Position numbers and translations under genes: made by a program | Shown here: piece after piece, positions 5,405-25,161 of the stretch | How positions within the stretch are numbered: the first letter of the stretch is position 1 | Layout of the letters: the number at the start of each line of letters is the position of its first letter | NCBI GenBank assembly: GCA_028713935.1 | Contig: JAQTNI010000017.1 | Coordinates: forward strand, 1-26,180 | From: Candidatus Iainarchaeum sp. | GTDB taxonomy: Archaea; Iainarchaeota; Iainarchaeia; Iainarchaeales; GCA-2688035 | Reading direction: 5' to 3' | DNA: 26,180 nt | The notes under the pieces: generated by a model | What the model was told of the DNA's origin: nothing | Databases searched by the model: none | Seen by the model: the letters and a program-made list of their open reading frames with translations, nothing else

Positions 5405-7160
5405 AGATTTCACGTTTCATTAATAATTTCATGTATTTTTCATTTGAAATATATTTGTTTTGCAACAATATTAAGGATAAGCATTCGGGCATATACTCAA
5501 AGAAATCTTGTTTTGTGATTCTGCACATTTCTATGATTGCTTGCAATGGAACTGCCTTTCCTCGAAGCCAGCCATTTACGTTGTGTCTTTTGTATTTGAA
5601 CATTGTTTTTTTGTTTTCTTCTATTTTTTGGACTAATGCTTTATTGCATTGGTACATATTGTTAGAGCATTTTGCTCTTGCGGATTTTATTAAACTTTTG
5701 ATTTTTGTGTTGTTTTGCAGTTTGATACAATGCAAAAATTCCTTGTTTTCTATAATTTTAAGAAAAGCGCTTTTTTTAATTGGATGACTTATGTAAGGAA
5801 GAACGTCATAAAAGCATTTTATGGTGTCTGTTAAATAGTTAATTCTAAAATCATAAAAATCAGTATTTTTTCCTTTATCGCAGTTAACTTTTTGTATTCT
5901 GTAACCAAGCTCCGTGCCTAGTTTGCTAGCTTGATCTCTGAATTTTTTGCTTAAGCTTGATGCCGCAATTCTTGGAAACTGTTTGTCCCGGTTTTCTGGA
6001 AAAAACGAACCCTCTGTTTCGAGAATTGTCGCAAATATTTGTTTTTTGTCCTCGTCATTTTTACAAGCATTTATCTCATCAGATATCTCCACATCTTTGC
6101 ATTTATAGCCGGGCTGCATGTTATACTGTAATACAAGCGTTTGCCTTAATGGTGCCGAGGAAATTGATAATTTATATCCGTCCCAATCTTTGTCTGTTCC
6201 TTTGTGAATACTGTTGTCATAAATAAGTGCTACCTTCGGATTCATTTTGTATAACCTAACAAATTTTTCTTTTATTTTTTCCAGTGTACATTCCGCACCT
6301 TTCCTTTGGCATGTTTCTACTCTTGGCTGTGATAATGCAATATGGCCTTCAAGCTTAATCCAAATAAGCAAATCAAGTAATTCTCTTCTTGGATAATTAT
6401 GGAATGTTATTGCTTCTTCTTCTGGCGCACAGTGCCCATATAATTTGCAATCGTCAATTTCTTGCCAAATGTCTTTATCCAACAGTTGGCAGATTTTTAT
6501 TAATGCAAGTAATTGTATTTTCCCTTGTTTTTTAGTCCAGAAATAAATCAATTGCCTATGCTTTACATTGCACAATTTTGCTAATTCTGTTTTCGTGCCA
6601 ACAAGCTTAAGTGCATCATTGACCAAGCCAACCAAATTATCTTTTGGTTCAAGACAAACAGAGTGGAAAGCTACAAGCGGTTTCACTATTCTCTTATTTG
6701 CAACGTTTCTCTGTATTCTTGTTTTATTCAAGCAAACCCAAAGTTGCTGGTACTGAATTGGAATGAATTTGTCTTGGGCATTTATTCTACAAGCTCTTTC
6801 CAGCAAGCGGATTGACAATAAGCACTTTGAATCCAAGTAGTCTTTCATTGTTTTTTCTTCGTTTTCAGTTCTCTCAAAAGTCGGATTTTGTAATGCTATT
6901 TCAATTGCTTTTTGCGGATTTTTGCTCAGCTCAACAAAGTAAGAACTTTCTTCAAACATTTGCTCACCACTGTAGATTTCGCTCGTTTTATTATAAAGTG
7001 CTTGCGGAGGTGAATTTCCGTTATTCATATGAATTGCTTCCGCAGAATTCATTGAGAATCCAGATATCTCTGTCATCCAAGTCTTCTGGATTATTGGCAG
7101 CAAGTCTTTTTGCAATTCGTATTTCTTCCAAAGTGGGAAGAGGAAACTGAAACCTTTCAT
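5394..7160 (-). CDS. Free-standing double-motif LAGLIDADG endonuclease-like protein with flanking HTH-like segments
   Basis: The ORF is 588-589 aa. It has two LAGLIDADG-type motifs about 113 aa apart (LLIWIKLEGHIAL and IFATILETEGSFF). There are two W..G...(I/P)L..L.....HTH-like segments (LAKLCNVKHRQLIYFWTKKQGKIQLLALIKI and NGWLRGKAVPLQAIIEMCRI). It looks more AT-rich than its neighbours. Its stop overlaps the gatE start. The 5' end is ambiguous (see findings). Confidence 0.6.
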   Translation of the reverse strand: MKGFSFLFPLWKKYELQKDLLPIIQKTWMTEISGFSMNSAEAIHMNNGNSPPQALYNKTSEIYSGEQMFEESSYFVELSKNPQKAIEIALQNPTFERTENEEKTMKDYLDSKCLLSIRLLERACRINAQDKFIPIQYQQLWVCLNKTRIQRNVANKRIVKPLVAFHSVCLEPKDNLVGLVNDALKLVGTKTELAKLCNVKHRQLIYFWTKKQGKIQLLALIKICQLLDKDIWQEIDDCKLYGHCAPEEEAITFHNYPRRELLDLLIWIKLEGHIALSQPRVETCQRKGAECTLEKIKEKFVRLYKMNPKVALIYDNSIHKGTDKDWDGYKLSISSAPLRQTLVLQYNMQPGYKCKDVEISDEINACKNDEDKKQIFATILETEGSFFPENRDKQFPRIAASSLSKKFRDQASKLGTELGYRIQKVNCDKGKNTDFYDFRINYLTDTIKCFYDVLPYISHPIKKSAFLKIIENKEFLHCIKLQNNTKIKSLIKSARAKCSNNMYQCNKALVQKIEENKKTMFKYKRHNVNGWLRGKAVPLQAIIEMCRITKQDFFEYMPECLSLILLQNKYISNEKYMKLLMKREIYGL

Positions 7161-7340
7161 CAAAATTCATTCGAACCACCTCCAAAATAAAAAAGAATTT
7201 TTTCTTGGACGTCTTGCGAATTTTGGAGCTATTAAATCCTTTTTACCAAAATTCCTAATTGAAGCGTAAAAAGGTTTAAAGCGAGAAAATTCGAGTCCAA
7301 AAGAAAAAATTCGATTAATTGGAGGTGGCGAGAATTTTTG
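7161..7340. repeat. Imperfect inverted repeat of about 46-50 bp arms (7161-7210 and 7295-7340) enclosing smaller hairpins
   Basis: The left arm is CAAAATTCATTCGAACCACCTCCAAAATAAAAAAGAATTTTTTCTTGGAC. The reverse complement of the right arm is CAAAAATTCTCGCCACCTCCAATTAATCGAATTTTTTCTTTTGGAC. Shared blocks are CCACCTCCAA and GAATTTTTTCTT..GGAC. An inner 9-bp hairpin pairs GAATTTTGG (7218-7226) with CCAAAATTC (7246-7254). Confidence 0.65.
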
Positions 7341-7397
7341 GGCTCATTAAAAGAAAAAGATATTGAAGAAATCTACGAAAAATTTAAAGAATAAAGG

Positions 7398-7934
7398 TTA
7401 CTTGCCCTGCACAATTTTCTTTCCAAGTTCAAGGCATTTCCGCATCAATTTTTTGTTATTAATTGCCTCGCCTTGTTCATGCGCTTTTGCCCTTACCCTG
7501 CCAACAATTTTTATTCCACAAATTTTGCAAAAATTTTCCAGTGCCTTTTCAGTTGTTTTCAGGGATTTTCCGCCTTCTATGCCAGCAACAACAAGCACTG
7601 CTTTTTTTCCTTTAAGGGTTTCTTCCCAGAAAGGGCAGAACCTGTCAAAAAAAATTTTCATCAAGCCGGAAACATTGTTGAAATAATTCGGGCTTCCAAG
7701 AACAATAACATCGGCATTGAACATTTTTGGATAAATAAGCCTCATATCATCATCCAGCCTGCATGTTCTTGTTTTTTCACAGCACAGGCAGCCATCGCAA
7801 AGCAAAATATTTTTGTCCCTAAGCAGAACCAGTTCAATCTGCGCTCCCGCTTCTTCAGCTCCGTCAAGAATCCGCTTCAGCATTGCCTCAATATTTCCCT
7901 TCCTTGGAGAGCCGCAAACTGCAAGAACCTTCAT
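7398..7934 (-). CDS. Flavodoxin-fold NAD(P)H-dependent FMN reductase / iron-sulfur flavoprotein family protein
   Basis: The 178-aa protein starts MKVLAVCGSPRKGN and has a Cys cluster (CDGCLCCEKTRTC). It also carries ADVIVLGSPNYFNNVSG, as in archaeal Isf-like flavoproteins. Confidence 0.8.
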   Translation of the reverse strand: MKVLAVCGSPRKGNIEAMLKRILDGAEEAGAQIELVLLRDKNILLCDGCLCCEKTRTCRLDDDMRLIYPKMFNADVIVLGSPNYFNNVSGLMKIFFDRFCPFWEETLKGKKAVLVVAGIEGGKSLKTTEKALENFCKICGIKIVGRVRAKAHEQGEAINNKKLMRKCLELGKKIVQGK

Positions 7935-7993
7935 AAAAACCGATTAATTATTGCAATGAAAAGTTTAAATTGCTCTGCCCACTAAAATACAAT

Positions 7994-8863
7994 ATGCAAA
8001 GGCAATCTAATTTGGACAGGAGAAAAGGCAGGCCTTCTTTTGGAAGGCGCCAATTAGGCAGGTCAATAAGCCCGCAGCAGGTAATTTCCGGCTTTGACAT
8101 GGCAGACAGGCAAATGCGCGCGCAAATGCGCGCAGTCAATGCATTCAAATCAAGGCTTGGCATAAAAAACATTACTGATGCGAATCTTGCAAGGCTAAAA
8201 AACCGCAGGGGAATCAGTGCAGGCAGGATGCGTTCCCTGAATGAAATTTTGCGCATCAAGCCGGAATATGTTTCTTCTCTCAGGGAAAGCGCCCGGGCTC
8301 GGCGCTTGATTAAGCTTGGCCTGGTCAGAGACCCAAAATTTGTGCAGATTGAAAACCTTGCCGCTTTTACCCATAATGTTTTCCAGATTATGCGCTCCTG
8401 TGAAGCCAGTGGCAGGCAATATTCAATGGCAATTCTTGACATTGACAAATTCAAGCGCATAAATGATTCTTTTGGGCATGGAGTCGGGGATGTGGTAATA
8501 AGTGAAATGGCTTCAATGCTCAGCGCTTTTGCAAAAAAACACGGCGGAGCAGCTGCAAGGGTTGGCGGTGAAGAATTCAGGGTGTTTGTTGCAATGTCTC
8601 CCAAAGAGCTGCGAACCAGGATTGTTGAGCTTCAAAAAACTTTTTCAGATGCCCTTGAAAAGCCTGAAAGGCGCGGAGCCCAGCCAATAAATAGCTGGCA
8701 AAACTGGACAGCGCCAACTTTCAGTGCCGGAATAAGCGCAAAAAAAGGAAACAAAAAAACCTTATTGAACAATGTTTTAAACCGGCTTTCAACAGAATCA
8801 GATTCCGCCTTGTACAAGGCGAAAGAAACAAGGAACACTGTTGCGGTTTTTGTTAAACCCTAA
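7994..8863 (+). CDS. GGDEF-domain protein (putative diguanylate cyclase) with an uncharacterised basic N-terminal region
   Basis: GGDEF-domain motifs are present in the usual order. They are ILDIDKFKRINDSFGHGVGD, an active-site GGEEF (nt 8564-8578), FSAGIS and DSALYKAKETRNTV. No RxxD I-site lies upstream of GGEEF. The ATG at 7994 is preferred because a TATA-like TTTAAAT sits about 27 nt upstream. The ORF is open from 7970. Confidence 0.85.
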   Translation: MQRQSNLDRRKGRPSFGRRQLGRSISPQQVISGFDMADRQMRAQMRAVNAFKSRLGIKNITDANLARLKNRRGISAGRMRSLNEILRIKPEYVSSLRESARARRLIKLGLVRDPKFVQIENLAAFTHNVFQIMRSCEASGRQYSMAILDIDKFKRINDSFGHGVGDVVISEMASMLSAFAKKHGGAAARVGGEEFRVFVAMSPKELRTRIVELQKTFSDALEKPERRGAQPINSWQNWTAPTFSAGISAKKGNKKTLLNNVLNRLSTESDSALYKAKETRNTVAVFVKP

Positions 8864-9857
8864 TTTTTCTTTCTTGGATTATTTGCTGGACAGTCCTCCT
8901 CATTAAGCTCTTGTAAAACAAAAGTAGGGCAGCAGGTGCAGTGTCGCTTACTTTTTGATTTTCTGCAATTTTTTTCCACGTAAGCCCCATGGACCTTTGC
9001 CTAATGGCTTCCTTAATTGCCAAGGGGCGCTTTTGTAAAAGCGGCATTCTCCTGATGAGCTCATTAATAATTTCTTCTTGCAAGCCAAAAGGCAGTTTTG
9101 CAAATTCGTGCAGGCCAATCAGTGCCATTGGAGGATTTTTTACAAGAGGTTCAGTTGCCCTGCCAGAAGAAGGCCTGGCAGCGCTTCTTCTGAATTTTTT
9201 TTTCATTGTTTTTTTTCTGGTTGCCTTTCTTGCCAATTCTGCTGCTATCTTGGGTATTTTGAAATTAACAAAATGCTCTATTTTTTGTTCTTCTGTCAGC
9301 CCTTTCAGTTTTTCCCGTTCAGGGTCAAAATAGTCAAGTTGTTCCAAAAGTTTTAACCGGATTTCTTGGGCTAATTCCAATGCAGAGTCAACCCCAGTTG
9401 CAAGGAAAAATTTTTTGTACATCCGAAACCTAGCGCTGGCACAACTATTAATTACTCCGGAAAAATGCCCAAGAATTTCTCTTTTCCTTGCCGGGCTAAA
9501 AAAATTTGTTCTTTTATTTTTTTTAGGTGTTCTGGCAGTACTTGGCGTTTCCAGTTTTCTGACAGTATCACGGGCAACTGTAACAGCTTTTGCAATCTTA
9601 CTTCTGGGCAAGTTTGTGTGTTTTAACAATTCAAGAATTCTTTGTTGTTTTTCCGGGGGTATTTTTGAAGAGTAGACTGGCCTTAATCCCCATATTCGTT
9701 TGAGGGTTGTTGTAGCTACGCCAAGCTCTCTTGCCTTTTGCTCGTAACTCCATGCTGTGCCAGGCCTTGGTTTTGCTCTTAAAATAGAGTTTCTCTGGTC
9801 AAGGGTTAACCGCCTTCCTGCATTAGGGCTTACAAATCCTCTTCTTCCAGCAGCCAA
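8853..9857 (-). CDS. Multi-HTH DNA-binding protein with sigma-70 region 2/4-like segments
   Basis: The 334-aa protein has two N-terminal HTH-like units (WSYEQKARELGVATTTLKRIWG and LPRSKIAKAVTVARDTVRKL). A basic linker and a helical segment (SALELAQEIRLKLLEQLDYFDPE) follow. The C-terminal HTH is RSMGLTWKKIAENQKVSDTA. It shares this architecture and an RSxGx[ST]WxxIA motif with the ORF at 21337-22119. Confidence 0.55.
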   Translation of the reverse strand: MAAGRRGFVSPNAGRRLTLDQRNSILRAKPRPGTAWSYEQKARELGVATTTLKRIWGLRPVYSSKIPPEKQQRILELLKHTNLPRSKIAKAVTVARDTVRKLETPSTARTPKKNKRTNFFSPARKREILGHFSGVINSCASARFRMYKKFFLATGVDSALELAQEIRLKLLEQLDYFDPEREKLKGLTEEQKIEHFVNFKIPKIAAELARKATRKKTMKKKFRRSAARPSSGRATEPLVKNPPMALIGLHEFAKLPFGLQEEIINELIRRMPLLQKRPLAIKEAIRQRSMGLTWKKIAENQKVSDTAPAALLLFYKSLMRRTVQQIIQERKIRV

Positions 9858-9904
9858 AAAAACACTTTTTTTTAATTGAAATTATTCCAAATTAAATTTT
9901 TTCC

Positions 9905-11266
9905 TCACGATTCTGGTGCCTTTGAATCCAGTGGGGTTCTCTCGTTTATTTCCCCGCAAAGATTTTTCTGCATTAATTCCTTTATTTTTTCCTTATCTTT
10001 GTAATTTCCCAAGAGCCAGGCGAGCTTTACAAAAGCCGTTTCAGGGAGCATGTCTTCGCAGTAGATTACTCCAATGCCGCTTACTTTTCTGAGATTGGCG
10101 TAAATAGTCGGGTGAACCCTGCCAAAAAGGCACTGTGAAGCCATGCAAACAACACAGCCGCTTTTAACAAGGCTTTTTATTATTTCAAGGTTTTTTGCAT
10201 GCTCTTTTGTTGCAATTGGAATATGACCAAGCCCTGTTCCCGCAATCACAAGCCCTTTTGACTTGTTTTCCTTGAAGAAAGAAAATTCTTTCACAGACAT
10301 GTTCGGATGCGAGTATAAAAAACCGGTTTTTTCCTCAAAATCAGGCCTTGCCTTAAAATTTTCAGCTGTTTTTCTCGGATAATCCTTTTTCAAAAAATTT
10401 ATTTCCCCTGTTTTATAATCCACCAAGGCAATTGGCGAGTCATTTATTGCCTTGAAAGCGTCTCTCCTGCTCGTATGCATTTTTCTTGTTTTGCACGCAG
10501 GCAGAATCGCACAGGCATCATCACTGTTGCTGTGGTGCATGCAGATTGCAACTCCGGCAAAATCTGTTTTTGCAATGAAACTAGCTGCGCAAATCAGGTT
10601 CATGGCTGCATCACTGCTTCCCCTGTCACTGCTTCTCTGCGCGCCAACAAGCAGTATTGGAACAGGGCAGTTTTCAAGCGCAAAAGCAAGCGCCGCAGAA
10701 GTATAACCCAATGTGTCAGTGCCATGCCCGAGAATTATTCCTTTCACACCTTTTTTTATTTCCTTTTCAATTGCCTTGGCAATTGTTTTGTAATCGCTGA
10801 AACGCATGTCCTCTGACATAATGTTGCTTACAAGAGTGCTTTCAAAATTTGCAATTTTTCCAAGTTCGGGAAACATTGAAAGCAAATCCTCTGGGCTGAA
10901 AGAGGCAAAAACACCGCCTGTTTCATAATTGACCCTGCTTGCAATTGTGCCGCCAGTATGCAGAATTGAAATTTTTGGCAGTGAAGTGTTCTGCTTTATT
11001 TCAGTTGTCTGGGGCTTTGCAGTTTTCATGCCCTGGGAAATTTTTTTAATTGAACTAATTTTGCCAGGGCTCAATCCAATGTTATAACCGCTTTTCAGCT
11101 TCAAAAAAACAATTCCAGTTTCATTTCCGGGGATTATTGTGCCCAAAACAGTTTCTTCCCCGAAAACAGCTTCTACAAAATCGCCTTCTTTCAGCTTTTT
11201 CTTTTTCAAAAAAATTTTTGCATCCATTAAAACCATCTTTTGAGAATTATTAATTGCAATTTTCAT
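9905..11266 (-). CDS. gatD: Glutamyl-tRNA(Gln) amidotransferase subunit D
   Basis: The 453-aa protein has an N-terminal GatD-specific domain followed by an asparaginase-type domain. Diagnostic segments are ILHTGGTIAS and ILGHGTDTLGYTSAAL. Confidence 0.95.
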   Translation of the reverse strand: MKIAINNSQKMVLMDAKIFLKKKKLKEGDFVEAVFGEETVLGTIIPGNETGIVFLKLKSGYNIGLSPGKISSIKKISQGMKTAKPQTTEIKQNTSLPKISILHTGGTIASRVNYETGGVFASFSPEDLLSMFPELGKIANFESTLVSNIMSEDMRFSDYKTIAKAIEKEIKKGVKGIILGHGTDTLGYTSAALAFALENCPVPILLVGAQRSSDRGSSDAAMNLICAASFIAKTDFAGVAICMHHSNSDDACAILPACKTRKMHTSRRDAFKAINDSPIALVDYKTGEINFLKKDYPRKTAENFKARPDFEEKTGFLYSHPNMSVKEFSFFKENKSKGLVIAGTGLGHIPIATKEHAKNLEIIKSLVKSGCVVCMASQCLFGRVHPTIYANLRKVSGIGVIYCEDMLPETAFVKLAWLLGNYKDKEKIKELMQKNLCGEINERTPLDSKAPES

Positions 11267-16583: not shown

Positions 16584-16952
16584 TCACAGAATGATTGCGT
16601 TTTCGCCTTCAAAATGCTTGTCACCAGTGACTATTTTCAGGCAATGTTGTTTTGCAGTGGCAAGAATTATTGCATCAACCATCCCAAAATTTTTTGAAAT
16701 TTTTCTTTTTTTTAGTTTTAATATGCCAGCCAATTCCAAAGTGGAATAATCTAAGCCAATTATTGTAGAGAAAGATTTTACAAAAAGCATTATTTTTTCT
16801 ATTTCTAGGCTTTCTTTTTCAATCCACTCGCTTATTTCAGCCAGGCAAATCGCACTGGTAAAACAAGGATTGCTGTGAAGAATTTCGTTTACCCTTGCGC
16901 CTTTTTCAGTGGCATTGAAAAATTCAATCCACGCAAAAGTATCCAGAAGCAA
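16584..16952 (-). CDS. vapC: PIN-domain toxin, VapC family
   Basis: The 122-aa protein has the PIN acidic residues in the usual contexts: MLLDTFAWIEF, LAEISEW, DAIILATA and IVTGDKHF. It lies directly downstream of an AbrB-type antitoxin gene. Confidence 0.85.
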   Translation of the reverse strand: MLLDTFAWIEFFNATEKGARVNEILHSNPCFTSAICLAEISEWIEKESLEIEKIMLFVKSFSTIIGLDYSTLELAGILKLKKRKISKNFGMVDAIILATAKQHCLKIVTGDKHFEGENAIIL

Positions 16953-18189: not shown

Positions 18190-18299
18190 GGGGCTTTAGT
18201 CTAGCCTGGTCCAGGATCCGCGCTTTGGGCCGAATTTTCTTCGTTAAAAGAAAACTCGCAAGTTAGCGTGTGACGGGGGTTCAAATCCTCCAAGCCCCA
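18190..18299 (+). tRNA. tRNA-Pro(UGG) with a 35-nt BHB intron at 37/38 (intron 18230-18264)
   Basis: The sequence reads GGGGCTT-TA-GTCT-AGCCTGGTCCA-GGAT-C-CGCGC-TTTGGG[35 nt]A-GCGTG-TGAC-GGGGG-TTCAAAT-CCTCC-AAGCCCC-A. The intron forms a BHB: a TTTG/CAAG central helix, 3-nt bulges GG^C and TT^A, and an outer helix CGA.TTTTC/GAAAA.TCG. Confidence 0.85.
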
Positions 18300-20618: not shown

Positions 20619-20924
20619 ATGGCAAAATTTTTGTTCTGGGAAAAAATCGTGCTTGACAGCGAAGCTGACTTTTTTGTTGAAATGCGCGCTTTTGAAGTGC
20701 CAAAATCTGCCGGATTCCCTGACTGCGTCAAATACTCGCTTGTGCTTGTTTGTGGGGAAGGCTGCATTTTGCGCTATGACAACGAGCAGGGAAAGGGCCA
20801 TCACAGGCATTGCAATGGCAAAGAGTCAAAGATTGAGTTCGGGTCAATTGAAGATTTATTAAAATATTTTTTTGCAGAGGCTGATGAGATTAGAAGGAAA
20901 CTGAAAAAAGGTGTCTTGAAGTGA
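20619..20924 (+). CDS. DUF6516/TumE-like putative toxin
   Basis: The 101-aa protein carries FPDCVKYSLVLV..GCILRYDNEQGKGHHRHCNGKE. This is the (Y/F)DN..G.GHH.H core I associate with TumE-like proteins. It overlaps the downstream HTH gene by 4 nt. The family name is recalled from memory and has not been searched. Confidence 0.55.
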   Translation: MAKFLFWEKIVLDSEADFFVEMRAFEVPKSAGFPDCVKYSLVLVCGEGCILRYDNEQGKGHHRHCNGKESKIEFGSIEDLLKYFFAEADEIRRKLKKGVLK

Positions 20925-21286
20925 AAGCAAGGGAAGTTTTGATTAGGATTGAAAGCCTGGAAGAGGCTGGCAAGAGGTTTGCCGAGGCTTACAAGCAGAT
21001 AAAACAGGGAAAAAAGCTTGCAAAAGAAGAAGTCCTTGCCTTTGAGAGCATTGAAATCTTAAGAAAAGTTTTAACCAGGCAAAGAATAGAATTGCTCCGC
21101 CTTATAAGGGAAAAACAGCCCGCTACGATTTATCAGCTCGCAAAATTTGCAAACAGGGCCTATCCAAATGTGTTTCAGGATGTAAAAATCTTGGATGGGC
21201 TTGGCTTGATAAAGCTTGAGGAATCAAACCGCAATATTGAACCGATTGCAAAGTACAGCCTGCTAAAAATAGCAATTTCCGTCTGA
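20921..21286 (+). CDS. Winged-helix DNA-binding protein (HVO_A0114-like), putative partner of the upstream gene
   Basis: The 121-aa protein uses a GTG start that overlaps the upstream stop. It carries VLAFESIEILRKVLTRQRIELLRLIREKQPATIYQLAKFANRAYPNVFQDVKILDGLGLIKLEE, which fits the HVO_A0114-type pattern. Confidence 0.65.
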   Translation: MKAREVLIRIESLEEAGKRFAEAYKQIKQGKKLAKEEVLAFESIEILRKVLTRQRIELLRLIREKQPATIYQLAKFANRAYPNVFQDVKILDGLGLIKLEESNRNIEPIAKYSLLKIAISV

Positions 21287-23479: not shown

Positions 23480-24023
23480 TGTTTTTTATTTTCTCTATTC
23501 TTTCCGCGATGCCTATTTTCGGGATTTTTTCCTCGTTAATGGTTGTGTTTCCAAGATACTGCAGCAATTGTTTTTTGTCCGCGCCTGTCAGTTCAGCTGC
23601 CTGCCCAAGGCTTAGCCCAGTGACATATGCAGTGGAAGCGAGCTTTATTTTTGCCTTGTCAAAAAGGCTTGTGAGGAAAAACCCGAGGTCCTTGTCAATT
23701 TCATCAACTCCTTTGAGCGCAAGGTCGAGTTTTTTTTCCAATTCCAAATAATCTTTTTGCCTTGCCGCCCTCAGTGCGGAATCAATGTTTTTTGAAATGC
23801 TTTTTTTTACATTTTTCCAGTTCCTGTTTTTTATTATGTGCTCTTTTGTCAAAAGCTTGTAAAGGCAATAGGCAATTATTGCTATTTTTGCGGCTGCCTT
23901 GTTGTTTTCAAAGCCTGCTTCCCTTATTATGGAATTTGACAGCCATTTCAATTCAAAAATATCAGGCTTTTCAAAAGCCCTTTCCAGTTTTTCAAGGTTT
24001 TTTTGAAAATCAAATTCTTTCAT
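23457..24023 (-). CDS. Hypothetical protein with a C-terminal UPF0175-like HTH (putative antitoxin-like partner of the PIN protein)
   Basis: The 188-aa protein carries AYVTGLSLGQAAELTGADKKQLLQYLGN near the C-terminus, resembling the UPF0175 SlGkAAelaG motif. It overlaps the upstream ORF by 4 nt. Confidence 0.5.
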   Translation of the reverse strand: MKEFDFQKNLEKLERAFEKPDIFELKWLSNSIIREAGFENNKAAAKIAIIAYCLYKLLTKEHIIKNRNWKNVKKSISKNIDSALRAARQKDYLELEKKLDLALKGVDEIDKDLGFFLTSLFDKAKIKLASTAYVTGLSLGQAAELTGADKKQLLQYLGNTTINEEKIPKIGIAERIEKIKNSFLKRSP

Positions 24024-24598
24024 GCAATCTGCCCCATCTGCCTTGCCTGTTCAAGCTTCTGCATTAATTGCGCATGAGTTTTTTCAATTCCGTGCTGCCT
24101 CAGCAATTGTTCCACCTGTGCATAATCAAGCCCAAGCCTTGGCGTGACATTTGCTATATCTTTAAGTTGTGCATAAACCTGTTCAAGGCCCCTGTCCCCT
24201 TTTTCCATGGCTCTTTTTATTGCCTCTTCAAATTTTTCTTTCGGCACTCTTAGCCTTGCTGCAAGCACAGAGGCATTCCATACAAGGCGCCTGTCTCCAA
24301 TGTATTTCTGCATGCTTCTCCCTGCTGCCAATGCTTTTGCAGCGTATCCCCTGATTGTCTCGGCTTGTTCCCTTGTGAATAGCGCAGGCCTTTCTGCAAA
24401 TAAACCTGCCTTTGGCCTTGGCCTGTGGTGAGTTGCCCTTGCGCGCGCCATTATCTGCCTTGCCCTTGCCTGCCCTGCTCTTGCTCGCAAGCCGCGCTGC
24501 ATGAATTGCCCTGCCATGCCAATTGAGCCCGGCATTGCAATCCTTTTTGCTGGAATTCTTCCAGTCATGTTCGTTGGCCTTCTTCTTGGAGTCATCAA
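24020..24598 (-). CDS. Hypothetical protein with an arginine-rich N-terminus
   Basis: The 192-aa protein starts MMTPRRRPTNMTGRIPAKR...RARAGQARARQIMARARATHHRPRPK and continues with a helical domain. It is the first gene of a three-gene overlapping unit on the minus strand. Confidence 0.5.
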   Translation of the reverse strand: MMTPRRRPTNMTGRIPAKRIAMPGSIGMAGQFMQRGLRARAGQARARQIMARARATHHRPRPKAGLFAERPALFTREQAETIRGYAAKALAAGRSMQKYIGDRRLVWNASVLAARLRVPKEKFEEAIKRAMEKGDRGLEQVYAQLKDIANVTPRLGLDYAQVEQLLRQHGIEKTHAQLMQKLEQARQMGQIA

Positions 24599-24684
24599 TA
24601 AATAGGATGTAATTTCAAATTATAATTGTTTTGTTTTTCCCTTCCATTAGGAATAAATACTGTTTGAGGCTTTTTAATTTCTGT

Positions 24685-25161
24685 ATGGTTTTCGGTTTTT
24701 TTGAGGGAAAAATTAATTTGGACCTGCAGGGAAAAACAAATTTTTTTTTCGGGGAAACAATTTCTGGGCAGCTTGTTCTCTCCTTAAGAAAGCCAAAGCA
24801 GGCAAGGCAATTGCGCATTGTTTTGCAGGGCACGGAAATTTTTACCCATCCCTCAACTGTTTTCAGGAATGGCAGGCAGGTTACTGAAATGCGCACTGAA
24901 AGCATTGTTGTTTTTTCCACTGAAGAAATCCTGGACAATGAAAAAACCTATTCTTCAGGAGAAACACGCTATGATTTTTCAATACAGGCGCCAGCACAGG
25001 CTTTTGCAAGGCCAAAGCTTGAAAGCACACTTGGAAATGTTTTGAATGTAATGCAGACTTTTTCGGGAAACAGGAGCAGGATAAAATGGGAATTAAAGGC
25101 TTCGCTTGATGTGCCTGGCTCTGTTGATGTCAGCAAAAACCTTCAGATAAGCCTTGCCTGA
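24685..25161 (+). CDS. Arrestin-fold / Spo0M-like protein
   Basis: The ORF runs from the ATG at 24685 (MVFGFFEGKINLDLQGKTNFFFGETISGQLVLSLRKPKQARQLRIVLQGTE...). This pattern matches the N-terminal beta-sandwich of SpoOM/arrestin-N-like proteins. The assignment rests on motif resemblance only. Confidence 0.5.
   Translation: MVFGFFEGKINLDLQGKTNFFFGETISGQLVLSLRKPKQARQLRIVLQGTEIFTHPSTVFRNGRQVTEMRTESIVVFSTEEILDNEKTYSSGETRYDFSIQAPAQAFARPKLESTLGNVLNVMQTFSGNRSRIKWELKASLDVPGSVDVSKNLQISLA

What the first reader, a model, noticed from the sequence alone, without database searches (positions are those of the whole stretch)
7994..8863. A bacterial-type GGDEF diguanylate cyclase lies in an archaeal gene neighbourhood
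Seen directly: the C-terminal ~170 aa contain the full GGDEF-domain motif series. These are DIDKFKRINDSFGHGVGD, an intact GGEEF active site at nt 8564-8578, FSAGIS, and ALYKAKETRNTV. The domain therefore looks catalytically competent. It has no RxxD inhibitory site. The N-terminal ~125 aa are basic and match nothing I recognise. Established knowledge: to my knowledge, c-di-GMP signalling domains (GGDEF, EAL, HD-GYP, PilZ) are abundant in Bacteria and essentially absent from characterised Archaea. This gene, however, sits between archaeal markers (gatE, gatD, BHB-intron tRNAs). Inference: it may be a horizontal acquisition giving this archaeon a cyclic-dinucleotide output, possibly related to a host-associated lifestyle. 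No EAL, HD-GYP or PilZ partner is present in this window.
Basis: partly seen in the sequence, partly recalled or inferred. Interest (0 to 1): 0.7.

Follow-up and report, generated by a model that had tools for sequence, protein, structure and literature searches.

The report
Genuine GGDEF cyclase gene in DPANN archaea
The gene is a real, intact-looking c-di-GMP synthase that has been stably inherited at the same chromosomal spot in a group of tiny uncultured archaea (Iainarchaeia), which makes the long-doubted existence of c-di-GMP synthesis in Archaea directly testable with one small protein.

Summary
ORF 7994-8863(+) encodes a 289-aa protein whose C-terminal 170 aa are a full GGDEF domain (Pfam 79.6 bits). 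Every catalytic and guanine-specifying residue is intact, and there is no RxxD I-site.

It is not a chimera or a contaminant. Orthologues (44-76% identity) lie in the same FMN-reductase / GGDEF / gatD arrangement, next to gatE and DNA ligase, on independently assembled contigs from other samples. More distant relatives sit beside gatE or inside the archaeal ribosome/exosome gene cluster. The gene diverges in step with its housekeeping neighbours and is under purifying selection (dN/dS 0.20). It has an archaeal-type TATA box 24 nt before the ATG.

This is therefore not a recent transfer. It is a lineage-wide, vertically inherited family of Iainarchaeia (Diapherotrites, DPANN). No close bacterial relative or identifiable donor was found.

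The N-terminal 117 aa are an orphan, strongly cationic module (pI 12): a disordered Arg-rich tail plus a helical hairpin or stalk.

The most likely function is a dimeric diguanylate cyclase without feedback inhibition. No phosphodiesterase, PilZ protein or riboswitch was found in the DNA available. The protein is already annotated as GGDEF in NCBI, and archaeal GGDEF hits have been mentioned in the literature but never validated.

The parts
7958..7970 (+). Putative archaeal promoter: a purine-rich BRE-like GAAAAG followed by the TATA-like box TTTAAAT, which ends 24 nt before the ATG. This spacing implies a leaderless or near-leaderless mRNA.
   Evidence: Sequence. The same (A)AAAGG-TTTAAAT / CTTAAAT / CTTAAT box lies 24-26 nt upstream of the ATG in orthologues L001, L002, L003 and L004. 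The promoter function is inferred, not shown.
7994..8863 (+). Complete CDS, 289 aa plus stop: a stand-alone GGDEF diguanylate cyclase. It is identical to NCBI MDD5163294.1.
7994..8071 (+). aa 1-26: a disordered Arg-rich tail with the family motif GRRxxARPxSPQQ.
   Evidence: AF2 pLDDT is below 50 for residues 1-23. R9, R19, R23 and P27 are invariant in A1.
8072..8326 (+). aa 27-111: a helical hairpin or stalk (H27-55, H62-69, H76-111). This is the probable dimerisation scaffold leading into the catalytic domain.
   Evidence: AF2 models (pLDDT about 85-90). Foldseek of the full model aligns it to stalk-containing cyclases WspR, DgcB and SiaD. The N-terminal module searched alone has no significant fold match.
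8327..8341 (+). aa 112-116: the family-specific linker motif R-D-P-K-F. It takes the place of the usual DxLTGL turn at the start of GGDEF domains.
   Evidence: D113, K115 and F116 are invariant in the 14-member alignment A3. The motif is present as D[PAQR][KR][FY] in 18 of the 23 clade members.
8345..8860 (+). aa 118-289: the GGDEF catalytic domain.
   Evidence: Pfam and TIGRFAM matches. PDB sequence hits include DgcR 6zxb at E 2.5e-19. Foldseek gives TM 0.75-0.83 to isolated GGDEF domains.
8564..8578 (+). GGEEF active-site (A-site) motif, aa 191-195.
8864..8875 (+). T-rich run (TTTTTCTTTCTT) directly after the stop codon. It is a possible archaeal oligo-T terminator and lies inside the 3' end of the convergent HTH gene.
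   Evidence: Sequence. This is inference only.
7398..7934 (-). NADPH-dependent FMN reductase-like flavoprotein, divergently transcribed from the GGDEF gene. It is a constant neighbour of the GGDEF gene at the gatE-gatD locus.
   Evidence: Pfam FMN_red at E 6.5e-26. It is present next to the GGDEF gene in L001, L002, L003 and L087.
8853..9857 (-). 334-aa basic HTH protein. It overlaps the 3' end of the GGDEF gene by 11 nt and is absent from all orthologous loci, so it is a window-specific insertion.
   Evidence: HTH_7 at E 5e-6. It is absent in L001-L003 and L087. It has no PHROG, PADLOC or plasmid match.
9905..11266 (-). gatD (archaeal Glu-tRNAGln amidotransferase subunit D), the conserved convergent neighbour.
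   Evidence: NF003217 at 491 bits and TIGR02153 at 466 bits.
3536..5413 (-). gatE (archaeal Glu-tRNAGln amidotransferase subunit E), the other boundary of the conserved interval.
   Evidence: NF003107 at 747 bits and TIGR00134 at 641 bits.

Best explanation
The ORF is a genuine chromosomal gene of an Iainarchaeia (Diapherotrites, DPANN) archaeon. It encodes a soluble, stand-alone diguanylate cyclase.

Shown here:
- It has a complete GGDEF domain with all residues needed for Mg2+/GTP binding and guanine recognition.
- It belongs to a small archaeal family that shares an orphan cationic N-terminal module.
- The gene is kept at the gatE/FMN-reductase/gatD locus in several diverged genomes, and it is under purifying selection.

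Inferred:
- Two subunits pair through the N-terminal helical stalk. Their GTP-loaded GGDEF half-sites then face each other and condense 2 GTP into c-di-GMP plus 2 PPi.
- Because the RxxD I-site is absent, product feedback inhibition is absent. Output would then be set by expression level or by what the polycationic N-terminus binds (a polyanion such as nucleic acid or acidic membrane, or a partner protein).
- Transcription starts from its own archaeal TATA box as a leaderless mRNA.
- The ultimate origin is probably an ancient transfer of a GGDEF domain from Bacteria into an ancestor of this lineage, followed by vertical descent.

The receptors and the degradation route of the product are unknown.
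For: Domain identity: Pfam 79.6 bits and TIGR00254 81.1 bits. PDB sequence hits go to active cyclases, including DgcR at 2.5e-19, DgcB, PleD and WspR. The AF2 model (pLDDT 80) matches GGDEF structures at E about 1e-10 and TM up to 0.83.

Catalytic residues, in PleD numbering recalled from memory: D149=D327, K154=K332, N157=N335, D166=D344, R189=R366, GGEEF 191-195, K277=K442 and R280=R446. These positions are kept, with only conservative substitutions, in all 23 clade members.

Authenticity: the identical protein is on a single 26,180-nt contig named Candidatus (I)ainarchaeum. Orthologues lie in the order FMN_red-(variable)-GGDEF-gatD, close to the DNA ligase (and, where the contig reaches, gatE). 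This holds on L001 (GCA_020053055.1), L002 (74-kb JGI contig), L003 (Logan) and L087 (GCA_002688035.1, 'Diapherotrites archaeon', Tara).

More distant members:
- One lies next to gatE-gatD (L092/93, PIN85722.1 'Diapherotrites archaeon').
- One lies inside an L15e/RNase P/proteasome/exosome/L37ae cluster (L094).
- One lies near gatE, Dph6, the DNA ligase and ProRS (L095).

Vertical descent: identity to the window across L001/L002/L003/L087 is 0.75/0.51/0.47/0.54. For gatE it is 0.78/0.59 (L001, L002 only). For the ligase it is 0.87/0.64/0.67/0.65.

Selection: dN/dS against L001 is 0.20 overall, 0.25 for the N-terminal part and 0.16 for the GGDEF domain.

Composition: GC3 is 0.45, inside the window's range of 0.31-0.48.

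Promoter: a conserved TTTAAAT box lies 24-26 nt before the ATG in five loci.

Clade: an exhaustive HMM search finds about 11 family clusters and then a gap from 168 to 136 bits. An NJ tree puts the 14 members, and then 23 short proteins, in exclusive clades.
Against: There is no biochemical evidence. c-di-GMP has never been detected in any archaeon.

No EAL, HD-GYP, PilZ or c-di-GMP riboswitch was found in the window or in the Pfam gene tables of the eleven related loci (Rfam on eight of them) (and the gene tables). A complete signalling circuit is therefore not demonstrated, although only fragments of the genomes were visible.

Dimerisation through the stalk is inferred from monomer models only. 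Heptad periodicity of helix 76-111 is weak.

The NJ tree has no support values, and its bacterial sequences were chosen as best hits to the family profile.

All the genomes are MAGs.

The PleD residue numbering is from memory.
Confidence: 0.75

Rival explanations
1. Assembly chimera or bacterial contaminant: a bacterial GGDEF fragment was mis-joined into an archaeal contig.
For: GGDEF domains are overwhelmingly bacterial. Galperin et al. 2018 and Romling 2022 warned explicitly that archaeal GGDEF hits might be contamination. GC is slightly raised at 7500-9000 (0.43-0.455 against about 0.39).
Against: The same gene lies in the same position between archaeal marker genes on at least five independently assembled contigs from different samples and assemblers, and more distant relatives sit in other clearly archaeal contexts. 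It co-diverges with its neighbours. It has an archaeal TATA box at a fixed distance. There is no close bacterial homologue; the best matches cover the domain only, at about 30-35% identity. The GC rise is explained by an Arg/Gly/Ala-rich composition (GC2 0.44), and GC3 is within range.
Confidence: 0.02
2. Recent horizontal acquisition from a bacterium, specific to this archaeon.
For: The gatE-gatD interval is variable and accepts cargo: orf589 and the HTH gene in the window, a serpin in L001. The GGDEF domain is of bacterial type.
Against: The orthologue is present at the locus in genomes whose gatE, ligase and FMN_red (the genes that could be compared) are only 46-67% identical to the window's, and the GGDEF protein shows matching divergence. 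The N-terminal module occurs only in this family among 5.8 billion proteins. There is no compositional anomaly in GC3. No bacterial sequence is closer than the archaeal ones.
Confidence: 0.05
3. The GGDEF fold is used for something other than c-di-GMP synthesis. Possibilities are a hybrid (Hypr-type) cGAMP or other cyclic or linear dinucleotide synthase, a GTP/ATP-binding or ATPase module as in GdpP/YybT, or a nucleotide-signal generator of an antiviral defence system (as with the Cas10 palm domain).
For: No canonical c-di-GMP turnover or receptor genes were seen nearby. c-di-GMP is undetected in archaea so far. The family has its own features: the RDPKF linker, a W-x2-W insert and a polycationic N-terminus.
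Against: The guanine-specifying pair N157/D166 is canonical. Hypr enzymes carry Ser at the D344-equivalent position (established knowledge, Hallberg 2016, cited), whereas Asp is invariant here. GG[DE]EF and the metal and phosphate ligands are intact, unlike degenerate ATPase-type GGDEFs. There is no PADLOC defence-family match for the protein or its neighbours. Its position is housekeeping-like and conserved rather than a defence island.
Confidence: 0.12
4. Decaying or non-functional relic of an old transfer.
For: The organism has a reduced genome, and no partner genes were seen.
Against: The ORF is intact in all members. dN/dS is 0.16-0.25. All catalytic positions are occupied by the canonical or a conservatively substituted residue across 23 sequences. 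A promoter element is conserved.
Confidence: 0.03

Closest known systems
Canonical bacterial diguanylate cyclases (PleD, WspR, DgcR; Pfam PF00990 / TIGR00254)
   Same: It has the same catalytic domain and the same predicted fold. It keeps the GGEEF A-site, the metal-binding Asp/Glu, the guanine-binding Asn/Asp and the phosphate-binding Arg/Lys.
   Different: It has no REC or other recognised sensor domain and no RxxD inhibitory site. RDPKF replaces the DxLTGL turn. There is a Trp-containing insert before FSAG. The host is an archaeon.
Stand-alone 'stalk/coiled-coil + GGDEF' cyclases: Caulobacter DgcB (6ttr) and Pseudomonas SiaD (7e6g; NCBIfam NF038266)
   Same: The architecture is the same: a long helix runs directly into the GGDEF domain of a protein of about 250-300 aa. 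The NF038266 match extends into the stalk (aa 78-279) and the 7e6g match covers aa 48-200.
   Different: The score of 83.7 bits is far below the SiaD equivalog cutoff of 290. No SiaABC partner genes are present. The N-terminal hairpin and Arg-rich tail are unique to the archaeal family. DgcB carries an I-site and this protein does not.
Hypr GGDEF cGAMP synthases (Geobacter GacA, Bdellovibrio Bd0367)
   Same: They share the GGDEF fold.
   Different: The specificity position is Asp (D166), as in c-di-GMP synthases, and not Ser (the Ser rule is from established knowledge).
Previously reported archaeal GGDEF hits: Methanocella arvoryzae CAJ37382, REC plus inactivated GGDEF in 'Ca. Micrarchaeum', and more than 300 BLAST hits in Asgard/DPANN MAGs
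   Same: All are GGDEF domains on archaeal or putatively archaeal sequence.
   Different: Those reports were left unvalidated, or were flagged as possible contamination or as inactive. This family is validated here by multi-genome synteny and has an intact active site. No direct sequence comparison with CAJ37382 was possible with these tools.
Archaeal c-di-AMP synthase DacZ (the only cyclic dinucleotide second-messenger enzyme established in Archaea)
   Same: It is a cyclic-dinucleotide cyclase encoded by an archaeal chromosome.
   Different: DacZ has an unrelated fold (DAC domain), a different nucleotide, and a known role in osmoregulation.

Membership tests
GGDEF diguanylate cyclase (PF00990 / TIGR00254) | Profile HMM match above the curated threshold | tested here: met
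   PF00990 scores 79.6 bits against 23.8. TIGR00254 scores 81.1 bits against 37.4.
GGDEF diguanylate cyclase (PF00990 / TIGR00254) | GG[D/E]EF A-site motif preceded by Arg (PleD R366) | tested here: met
   R189-V-G191-G-E-E-F195. In the 23-member clade the motif reads GG[DE]E[FLY], preceded by R or K.
GGDEF diguanylate cyclase (PF00990 / TIGR00254) | Metal-binding Asp (PleD D327) and guanine-binding Asn/Asp (N335/D344) | tested here: met
   D149, N157 and D166 are invariant in alignments A1 and A3. The mapping to PleD numbers is by motif, from memory.
GGDEF diguanylate cyclase (PF00990 / TIGR00254) | Palm-like GGDEF fold | tested here: met
   The AF2 model has pLDDT 80. Foldseek against the PDB gives E 5e-11 to 1e-9 and TM 0.75-0.83 to isolated GGDEF domains.
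GGDEF diguanylate cyclase (PF00990 / TIGR00254) | Homodimerisation that brings two half-sites together | tested here: inconclusive
   A long helix (76-111) leads into the domain, as in WspR, DgcB and SiaD. Only monomer models were possible, and the heptad signal is weak.
GGDEF diguanylate cyclase (PF00990 / TIGR00254) | Conversion of 2 GTP to c-di-GMP | not testable with these tools
   This needs an enzyme assay.
I-site-regulated cyclases | RxxD motif five residues upstream of GGDEF | tested here: not met
   The position reads K182-H-G-G185. None of the 23 clade members has RxxD.
Complete c-di-GMP signalling module | Phosphodiesterase (EAL or HD-GYP) and a receptor (PilZ, MshEN, riboswitch) in the same genome | tested here: inconclusive
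   None was found in the 26-kb window or the fetched flanks of the relatives (gene tables). Whole genomes could not be scanned.
SiaD (NCBIfam NF038266 equivalog) | Score above the equivalog cutoff, plus siaABC neighbours | tested here: not met
   It scores 83.7 bits against a cutoff of 290, and there are no SiaA/B/C-like neighbours.
Hypr GGDEF (cGAMP synthase) | Ser instead of Asp at the PleD-D344 position | tested here: not met
   D166 is invariant.
Known anti-phage defence systems (PADLOC) | Match to a defence-system protein model | tested here: not met
   There is no PADLOC match for the GGDEF protein, FMN_red, the HTH protein or orf589.

The most novel reading that the evidence does not exclude
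Iainarchaeia possess a working, archaeal-style c-di-GMP (or related dinucleotide) pathway. In it the cyclase is tethered to, or switched on by, a polyanion (DNA, RNA, ribosome or acidic membrane) through its clade-wide polycationic N-terminal module. This would be analogous to the basic N-tail of cGAS or to DNA-scanning DisA. The pathway would signal through receptors unrelated to PilZ/EAL/HD-GYP. It would be the first c-di-GMP circuit in Archaea and a new input logic for GGDEF enzymes.
Probability: 0.15. Interest if true: 0.85.

Novelty: new variant of a known kind. Interest (0 to 1): 0.55.

Why it matters
Reviews up to 2023 state that c-di-GMP has not been found in any archaeon. The leading census authors wrote that archaeal GGDEF hits still had to be confirmed as genuine rather than contamination.

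This locus supplies that confirmation for one lineage. The gene is catalytically intact and under purifying selection. It is physically linked to gatD/gatE and other archaeal core genes in several independent assemblies.

It therefore gives experimenters a small, soluble, easily synthesised candidate (289 aa). With it they can test whether an archaeal enzyme makes c-di-GMP. They can also fish for non-bacterial receptors.

Finally, the conserved polycationic N-terminal module hints at an input mechanism not described for bacterial cyclases.

Tried and rejected
1. The genome-contig scan with the family alignment used generic GGDEF motifs.

2. The homologue search with the profile of distant clade members (A4) was limited by the candidate cap. 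It re-found only P0201 and P0233.

3. The metagenome scan with family-specific N-terminal motifs found a single 2.3-kb contig. An earlier attempt failed because no stretch was conserved enough.

4. I tried to identify the N-terminal module. A profile search of 5.8 billion proteins found one more fragment of the same family. PHROGs gave nothing. Foldseek on the separately modelled N-terminus gave a best E of 0.5, to generic helical hairpins. I considered the idea of a CZB-like zinc sensor (the DgcZ hit) and rejected it, because no conserved His or Cys is present in the N-terminus.

5. A defence-system role: there is no PADLOC match.

6. A link between the window's HTH protein and the sigma70_r4 protein near P0008: they are unrelated.

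7. I looked for mobile-element boundaries around the window-specific inserts. No convincing terminal or target-site repeats were found.

8. A donor lineage could not be resolved. The nearest bacterial domains are about equally distant.

9. The translation-linked neighbourhood idea (gatD/E, ValRS, L15e/RNase P/exosome, Dph6) is noted but not claimed, because DPANN genomes are dense in such genes.
Full report
**1.
The ORF runs 7970-8863 on the + strand. The ATG at 7994 gives a 289-aa protein, and the stop codon is at 8861-8863.

- Pfam GGDEF (PF00990) matches aa 118-280 at E 2.8e-22 and 79.6 bits, against a gathering score of 23.8.
- TIGR00254 gives 81.1 bits against a cutoff of 37.4.
- A profile of the family hits solved diguanylate cyclases by sequence, including DgcR 6zxb (E 2.5e-19), DgcB, GcbC, PleD and WspR.
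- An AlphaFold2 model (pLDDT 80.2) matches GGDEF structures at Foldseek E of about 1e-10. TM-scores to isolated domains are 0.75-0.83.

I mapped the residues by motif onto PleD, with the numbering recalled from memory. D149, K154, N157, D166, R189, E193/E194, K277 and R280 correspond to D327, K332, N335, D344, R366, E370/E371, K442 and R446.

The I-site position reads KHGG instead of RxxD. The specificity residue is Asp, as in GTP-specific enzymes, and not the Ser of Hypr cGAMP synthases.

**2. The neighbourhood is archaeal and the gene belongs there.**
The window carries these archaeal features:

- gatE (TIGR00134, 641 bits) and gatD (TIGR02153, 466 bits);
- an ATP-dependent DNA ligase;
- two tRNAs with 16-17-nt and roughly 35-nt insertions at the canonical intron position, which the bacterial-mode tRNA finder missed.

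The identical protein is NCBI MDD5163294.1, 'GGDEF domain-containing protein [Candidatus (I)ainarchaeum sp.]'. Its contig is exactly as long as the window.

Seven further proteins of about 290 aa share 44-76% identity over at least 92% of the query length. After them the E-value drops from 1e-68 to 3e-17. Their contigs show the same arrangement:

- L001 (GCA_020053055.1): gatE, FMN_red, serpin, GGDEF, then convergent gatD, then ligase.
- L002 (74-kb JGI contig): gatE, FMN_red, small ORF, Flavin_Reduct, GGDEF, gatD, then ligase.
- L003 (Logan run): FMN_red, GGDEF, Flavin_Reduct, one further ORF, gatD, then ligase.
- L087 (GCA_002688035.1, 'Candidatus Diapherotrites archaeon', Tara 0.1-0.22 µm fraction): FMN_red, small ORF, Flavin_Reduct, GGDEF, gatD, then ligase.

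These are independent samples and assemblers. A chimera or contaminant is therefore excluded for practical purposes.

**3. Vertical inheritance and selection.**
Amino-acid identity between the window and L001/L002/L003/L087:

| Protein | L001 | L002 | L003 | L087 |
|---|---|---|---|---|
| GGDEF | 0.75 | 0.51 | 0.47 | 0.54 |
| gatE | 0.78 | 0.59 | - | - |
| DNA ligase | 0.87 | 0.64 | 0.67 | 0.65 |
| FMN_red | 0.85 | 0.49 | 0.46 | 0.56 |

The GGDEF gene has therefore diverged together with its housekeeping neighbours.

- Against L001, dN/dS is 0.20 overall. It is 0.25 for the N-terminal part and 0.16 for the catalytic domain.
- GC3 is 0.45, inside the window's range of 0.31-0.48. The locally higher GC comes from second codon positions, which reflects an Arg/Gly/Ala-rich protein.
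- A purine-rich stretch plus TTTAAAT ends 24 nt before the ATG. An equivalent box lies 24-26 nt before the ATG in L001, L002, L003 and L004. This is the geometry expected for an archaeal BRE/TATA promoter driving a leaderless mRNA (inference).

**4. Extent of the family.**
An exhaustive HMM search of 1.84 billion cluster representatives found GGDEF domains everywhere, with 412,826 hits. Only about 11 clusters belong to this family:

- full-length relatives P0003, P0007, P0008, P0127 and P0130;
- fragments P0121 and P0128;
- a second tier, P0129 and P0131-P0133, which share the stalk helix, the RDPKF linker and the domain.

After these there is a gap from 168 to 136 bits.

More distant short proteins include PIN85722.1 ('Candidatus Diapherotrites archaeon') and MEK6820890.1 ('archaeon'). 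Their contexts are again archaeal:

- GGDEF convergent with gatE-HTH-gatD (L092/93);
- GGDEF inside a cluster with aIF5A, LSM, L15e, RNase P p30/Rpp14, proteasome alpha, SBDS, exosome subunits and L37ae (L094);
- GGDEF with gatE, Dph6, the DNA ligase and an archaeal/eukaryotic-type (family I, ProRS-C_1) ProRS within about 7 kb; only Dph6 is directly adjacent (L095, a 135-kb contig).

I built a neighbour-joining tree of 125 domains. The 14 family members form an exclusive clade, and with nine further short proteins they form an exclusive clade of 23. The tree has no support values, and the bacterial sequences were picked as best hits. All 23 keep the catalytic residues and none has RxxD.

I conclude that a GGDEF gene was already present in an early member of this DPANN lineage. 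An ancient bacterial origin is likely, given how the domain is distributed, but no donor can be named.

**5. The N-terminal module.**
Residues 1-26 are predicted to be disordered and are Arg-rich, with the motif GRRxxARPxSPQQ. Residues 27-111 form a helical hairpin whose last long helix runs into the catalytic domain.

- The module has pI 12 and a net charge of +21.
- A profile of it finds only one more fragment of the same family among 5.8 billion proteins.
- It has no PHROG match.
- Its model has no significant PDB neighbour; the best E is 0.5, to generic hairpins.

The full model aligns to stalk-bearing cyclases (WspR, GCN4-WspR, DgcB coiled coil plus GGDEF, SiaD). The weak SiaD and 7e6g sequence matches extend into the stalk. 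A dimerising stalk is therefore the most economical reading.

All 23 clade members have a cationic N-terminal extension, at +9.8 to +26.8 per 100 aa. In 100 bacterial comparators the 110 aa before the domain average 0.0 ± 4.0 per 100 aa.

One caveat applies. This organism's proteins are generally basic. The first 112 aa of the other window proteins average +5.1 ± 6.9 per 100 aa, with a maximum of 17.9, so the GGDEF value of 18.8 is the top of the range and not an outlier by orders of magnitude. Polyanion binding is an attractive hypothesis but is untested.

**6. What is missing.**
No EAL, HD-GYP or PilZ domain was found in any ORF scanned in the window. None appears in the gene tables of the related loci. 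No c-di-GMP riboswitch was found in the window or in eight related loci. There is no PADLOC defence match.

Only about 10-20 kb per genome was visible, so absence from the genomes is not established.

**7. Relation to what is known.**
- The 2018 census of archaeal signalling stated that the only archaeal GGDEF then known was from Methanocella arvoryzae. It also said that other bacterial-type hits might be contamination.
- Braun et al. 2021 noted more than 300 BLAST hits, mostly in Asgard and DPANN MAGs, and failed to detect c-di-GMP in Haloferax and Sulfolobus.
- Romling 2022 wrote that the presence of GGDEF proteins on archaeal contigs still needed confirmation.
- A 2023 review repeats that c-di-GMP has not been detected in archaea.
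- I found no paper dealing with the Iainarchaeia family.

The domain itself is therefore ordinary, and the protein is already annotated automatically. Three things are new here:

- the demonstration that it is a genuine, selected, vertically inherited archaeal gene family;
- its clade-specific features (polycationic orphan N-terminus, RDPKF linker, Trp insert, no I-site);
- its fixed position beside gatD/gatE.

**8. Verdict.**

- Best explanation: a stand-alone, feedback-insensitive diguanylate cyclase of Iainarchaeia. Confidence is 0.75 for the whole statement, and higher for authenticity alone.
- Novelty: a new variant of a known kind.
- Interest: 0.55.

Noticed in passing
window 685-774 (-) and 18190-18299 (+): Two tRNA genes found by Rfam (56.2 and 42.4 bits) carry insertions of 16-17 nt and about 35 nt just 3' of the anticodon, which is the canonical archaeal intron site. 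ARAGORN in bacterial mode missed both. The bulge-helix-bulge structure itself was not checked.
   Followed up: partly
window 5413-9905, compared with L001, L002, L003 and L087: The interval between gatE and gatD is a variable cargo region. FMN_red and GGDEF are constant residents. The other genes differ between genomes: a 589-aa orphan plus a 334-aa HTH protein here, a serpin in L001, and Flavin_Reduct with or without small ORFs in L002, L003 and L087. No terminal or target-site repeats were found around the window-specific inserts.
   Followed up: partly
window 9905-11266 (-), gatD: gatD is only 62% identical to its L001 counterpart, whereas gatE (78%), the DNA ligase (87%) and FMN_red (85%) are much closer. 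gatD is also closer to L002 (68%). This may reflect allele replacement or recombination at gatD in one lineage.
   Followed up: no
window 7964-7969: The TATA-like hexamer TTTAAA is palindromic. It lies 24 nt from the GGDEF ATG (7994, + strand) and 29 nt from the FMN_red ATG (7934, - strand). A single box might therefore drive both divergent genes.
   Followed up: no
window 24631-25161 (+): A 176-aa ORF matches Arrestin_N (E 1.8e-8, above the Pfam cutoff) and, weakly, Arrestin_C. An arrestin-like fold is unusual in a DPANN archaeon.
   Followed up: no
window 20619-21286 (+) and 16584-16952 (-): There is a TumE-toxin ORF (E 2.8e-12) followed by an HVO_A0114/MarR-type HTH ORF (E 2.3e-22), which looks like a toxin-antitoxin pair. 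A separate PIN-domain ORF is also present.
   Followed up: no
window 5394-7163 (-): This is a 589-aa ORF with the lowest GC in the window (0.34). It has no Pfam, NCBIfam, PHROG or PADLOC match above threshold. It overlaps the annotated gatE start by 20 nt and is absent from orthologous loci.
   Followed up: partly
window 68-796 (+): A LAGLIDADG_3-like ORF (E 2.5e-6) overlaps, on the opposite strand, the intron-containing tRNA at 685-774. The true extent of the ORF is uncertain.
   Followed up: no
window 24020-24598 (-): This is a 192-aa ORF with the highest GC in the window (0.50), pI 11.6 and no family match.
   Followed up: no
L094 8001-8843; L088 6457-7395; L095 8001-8918; L004 337-1221: Distant family members repeatedly lie near translation genes: L15e, RNase P and exosome genes; ValRS; Dph6 and ProRS. 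This may be chance, because these small genomes are dense in translation genes.
   Followed up: partly
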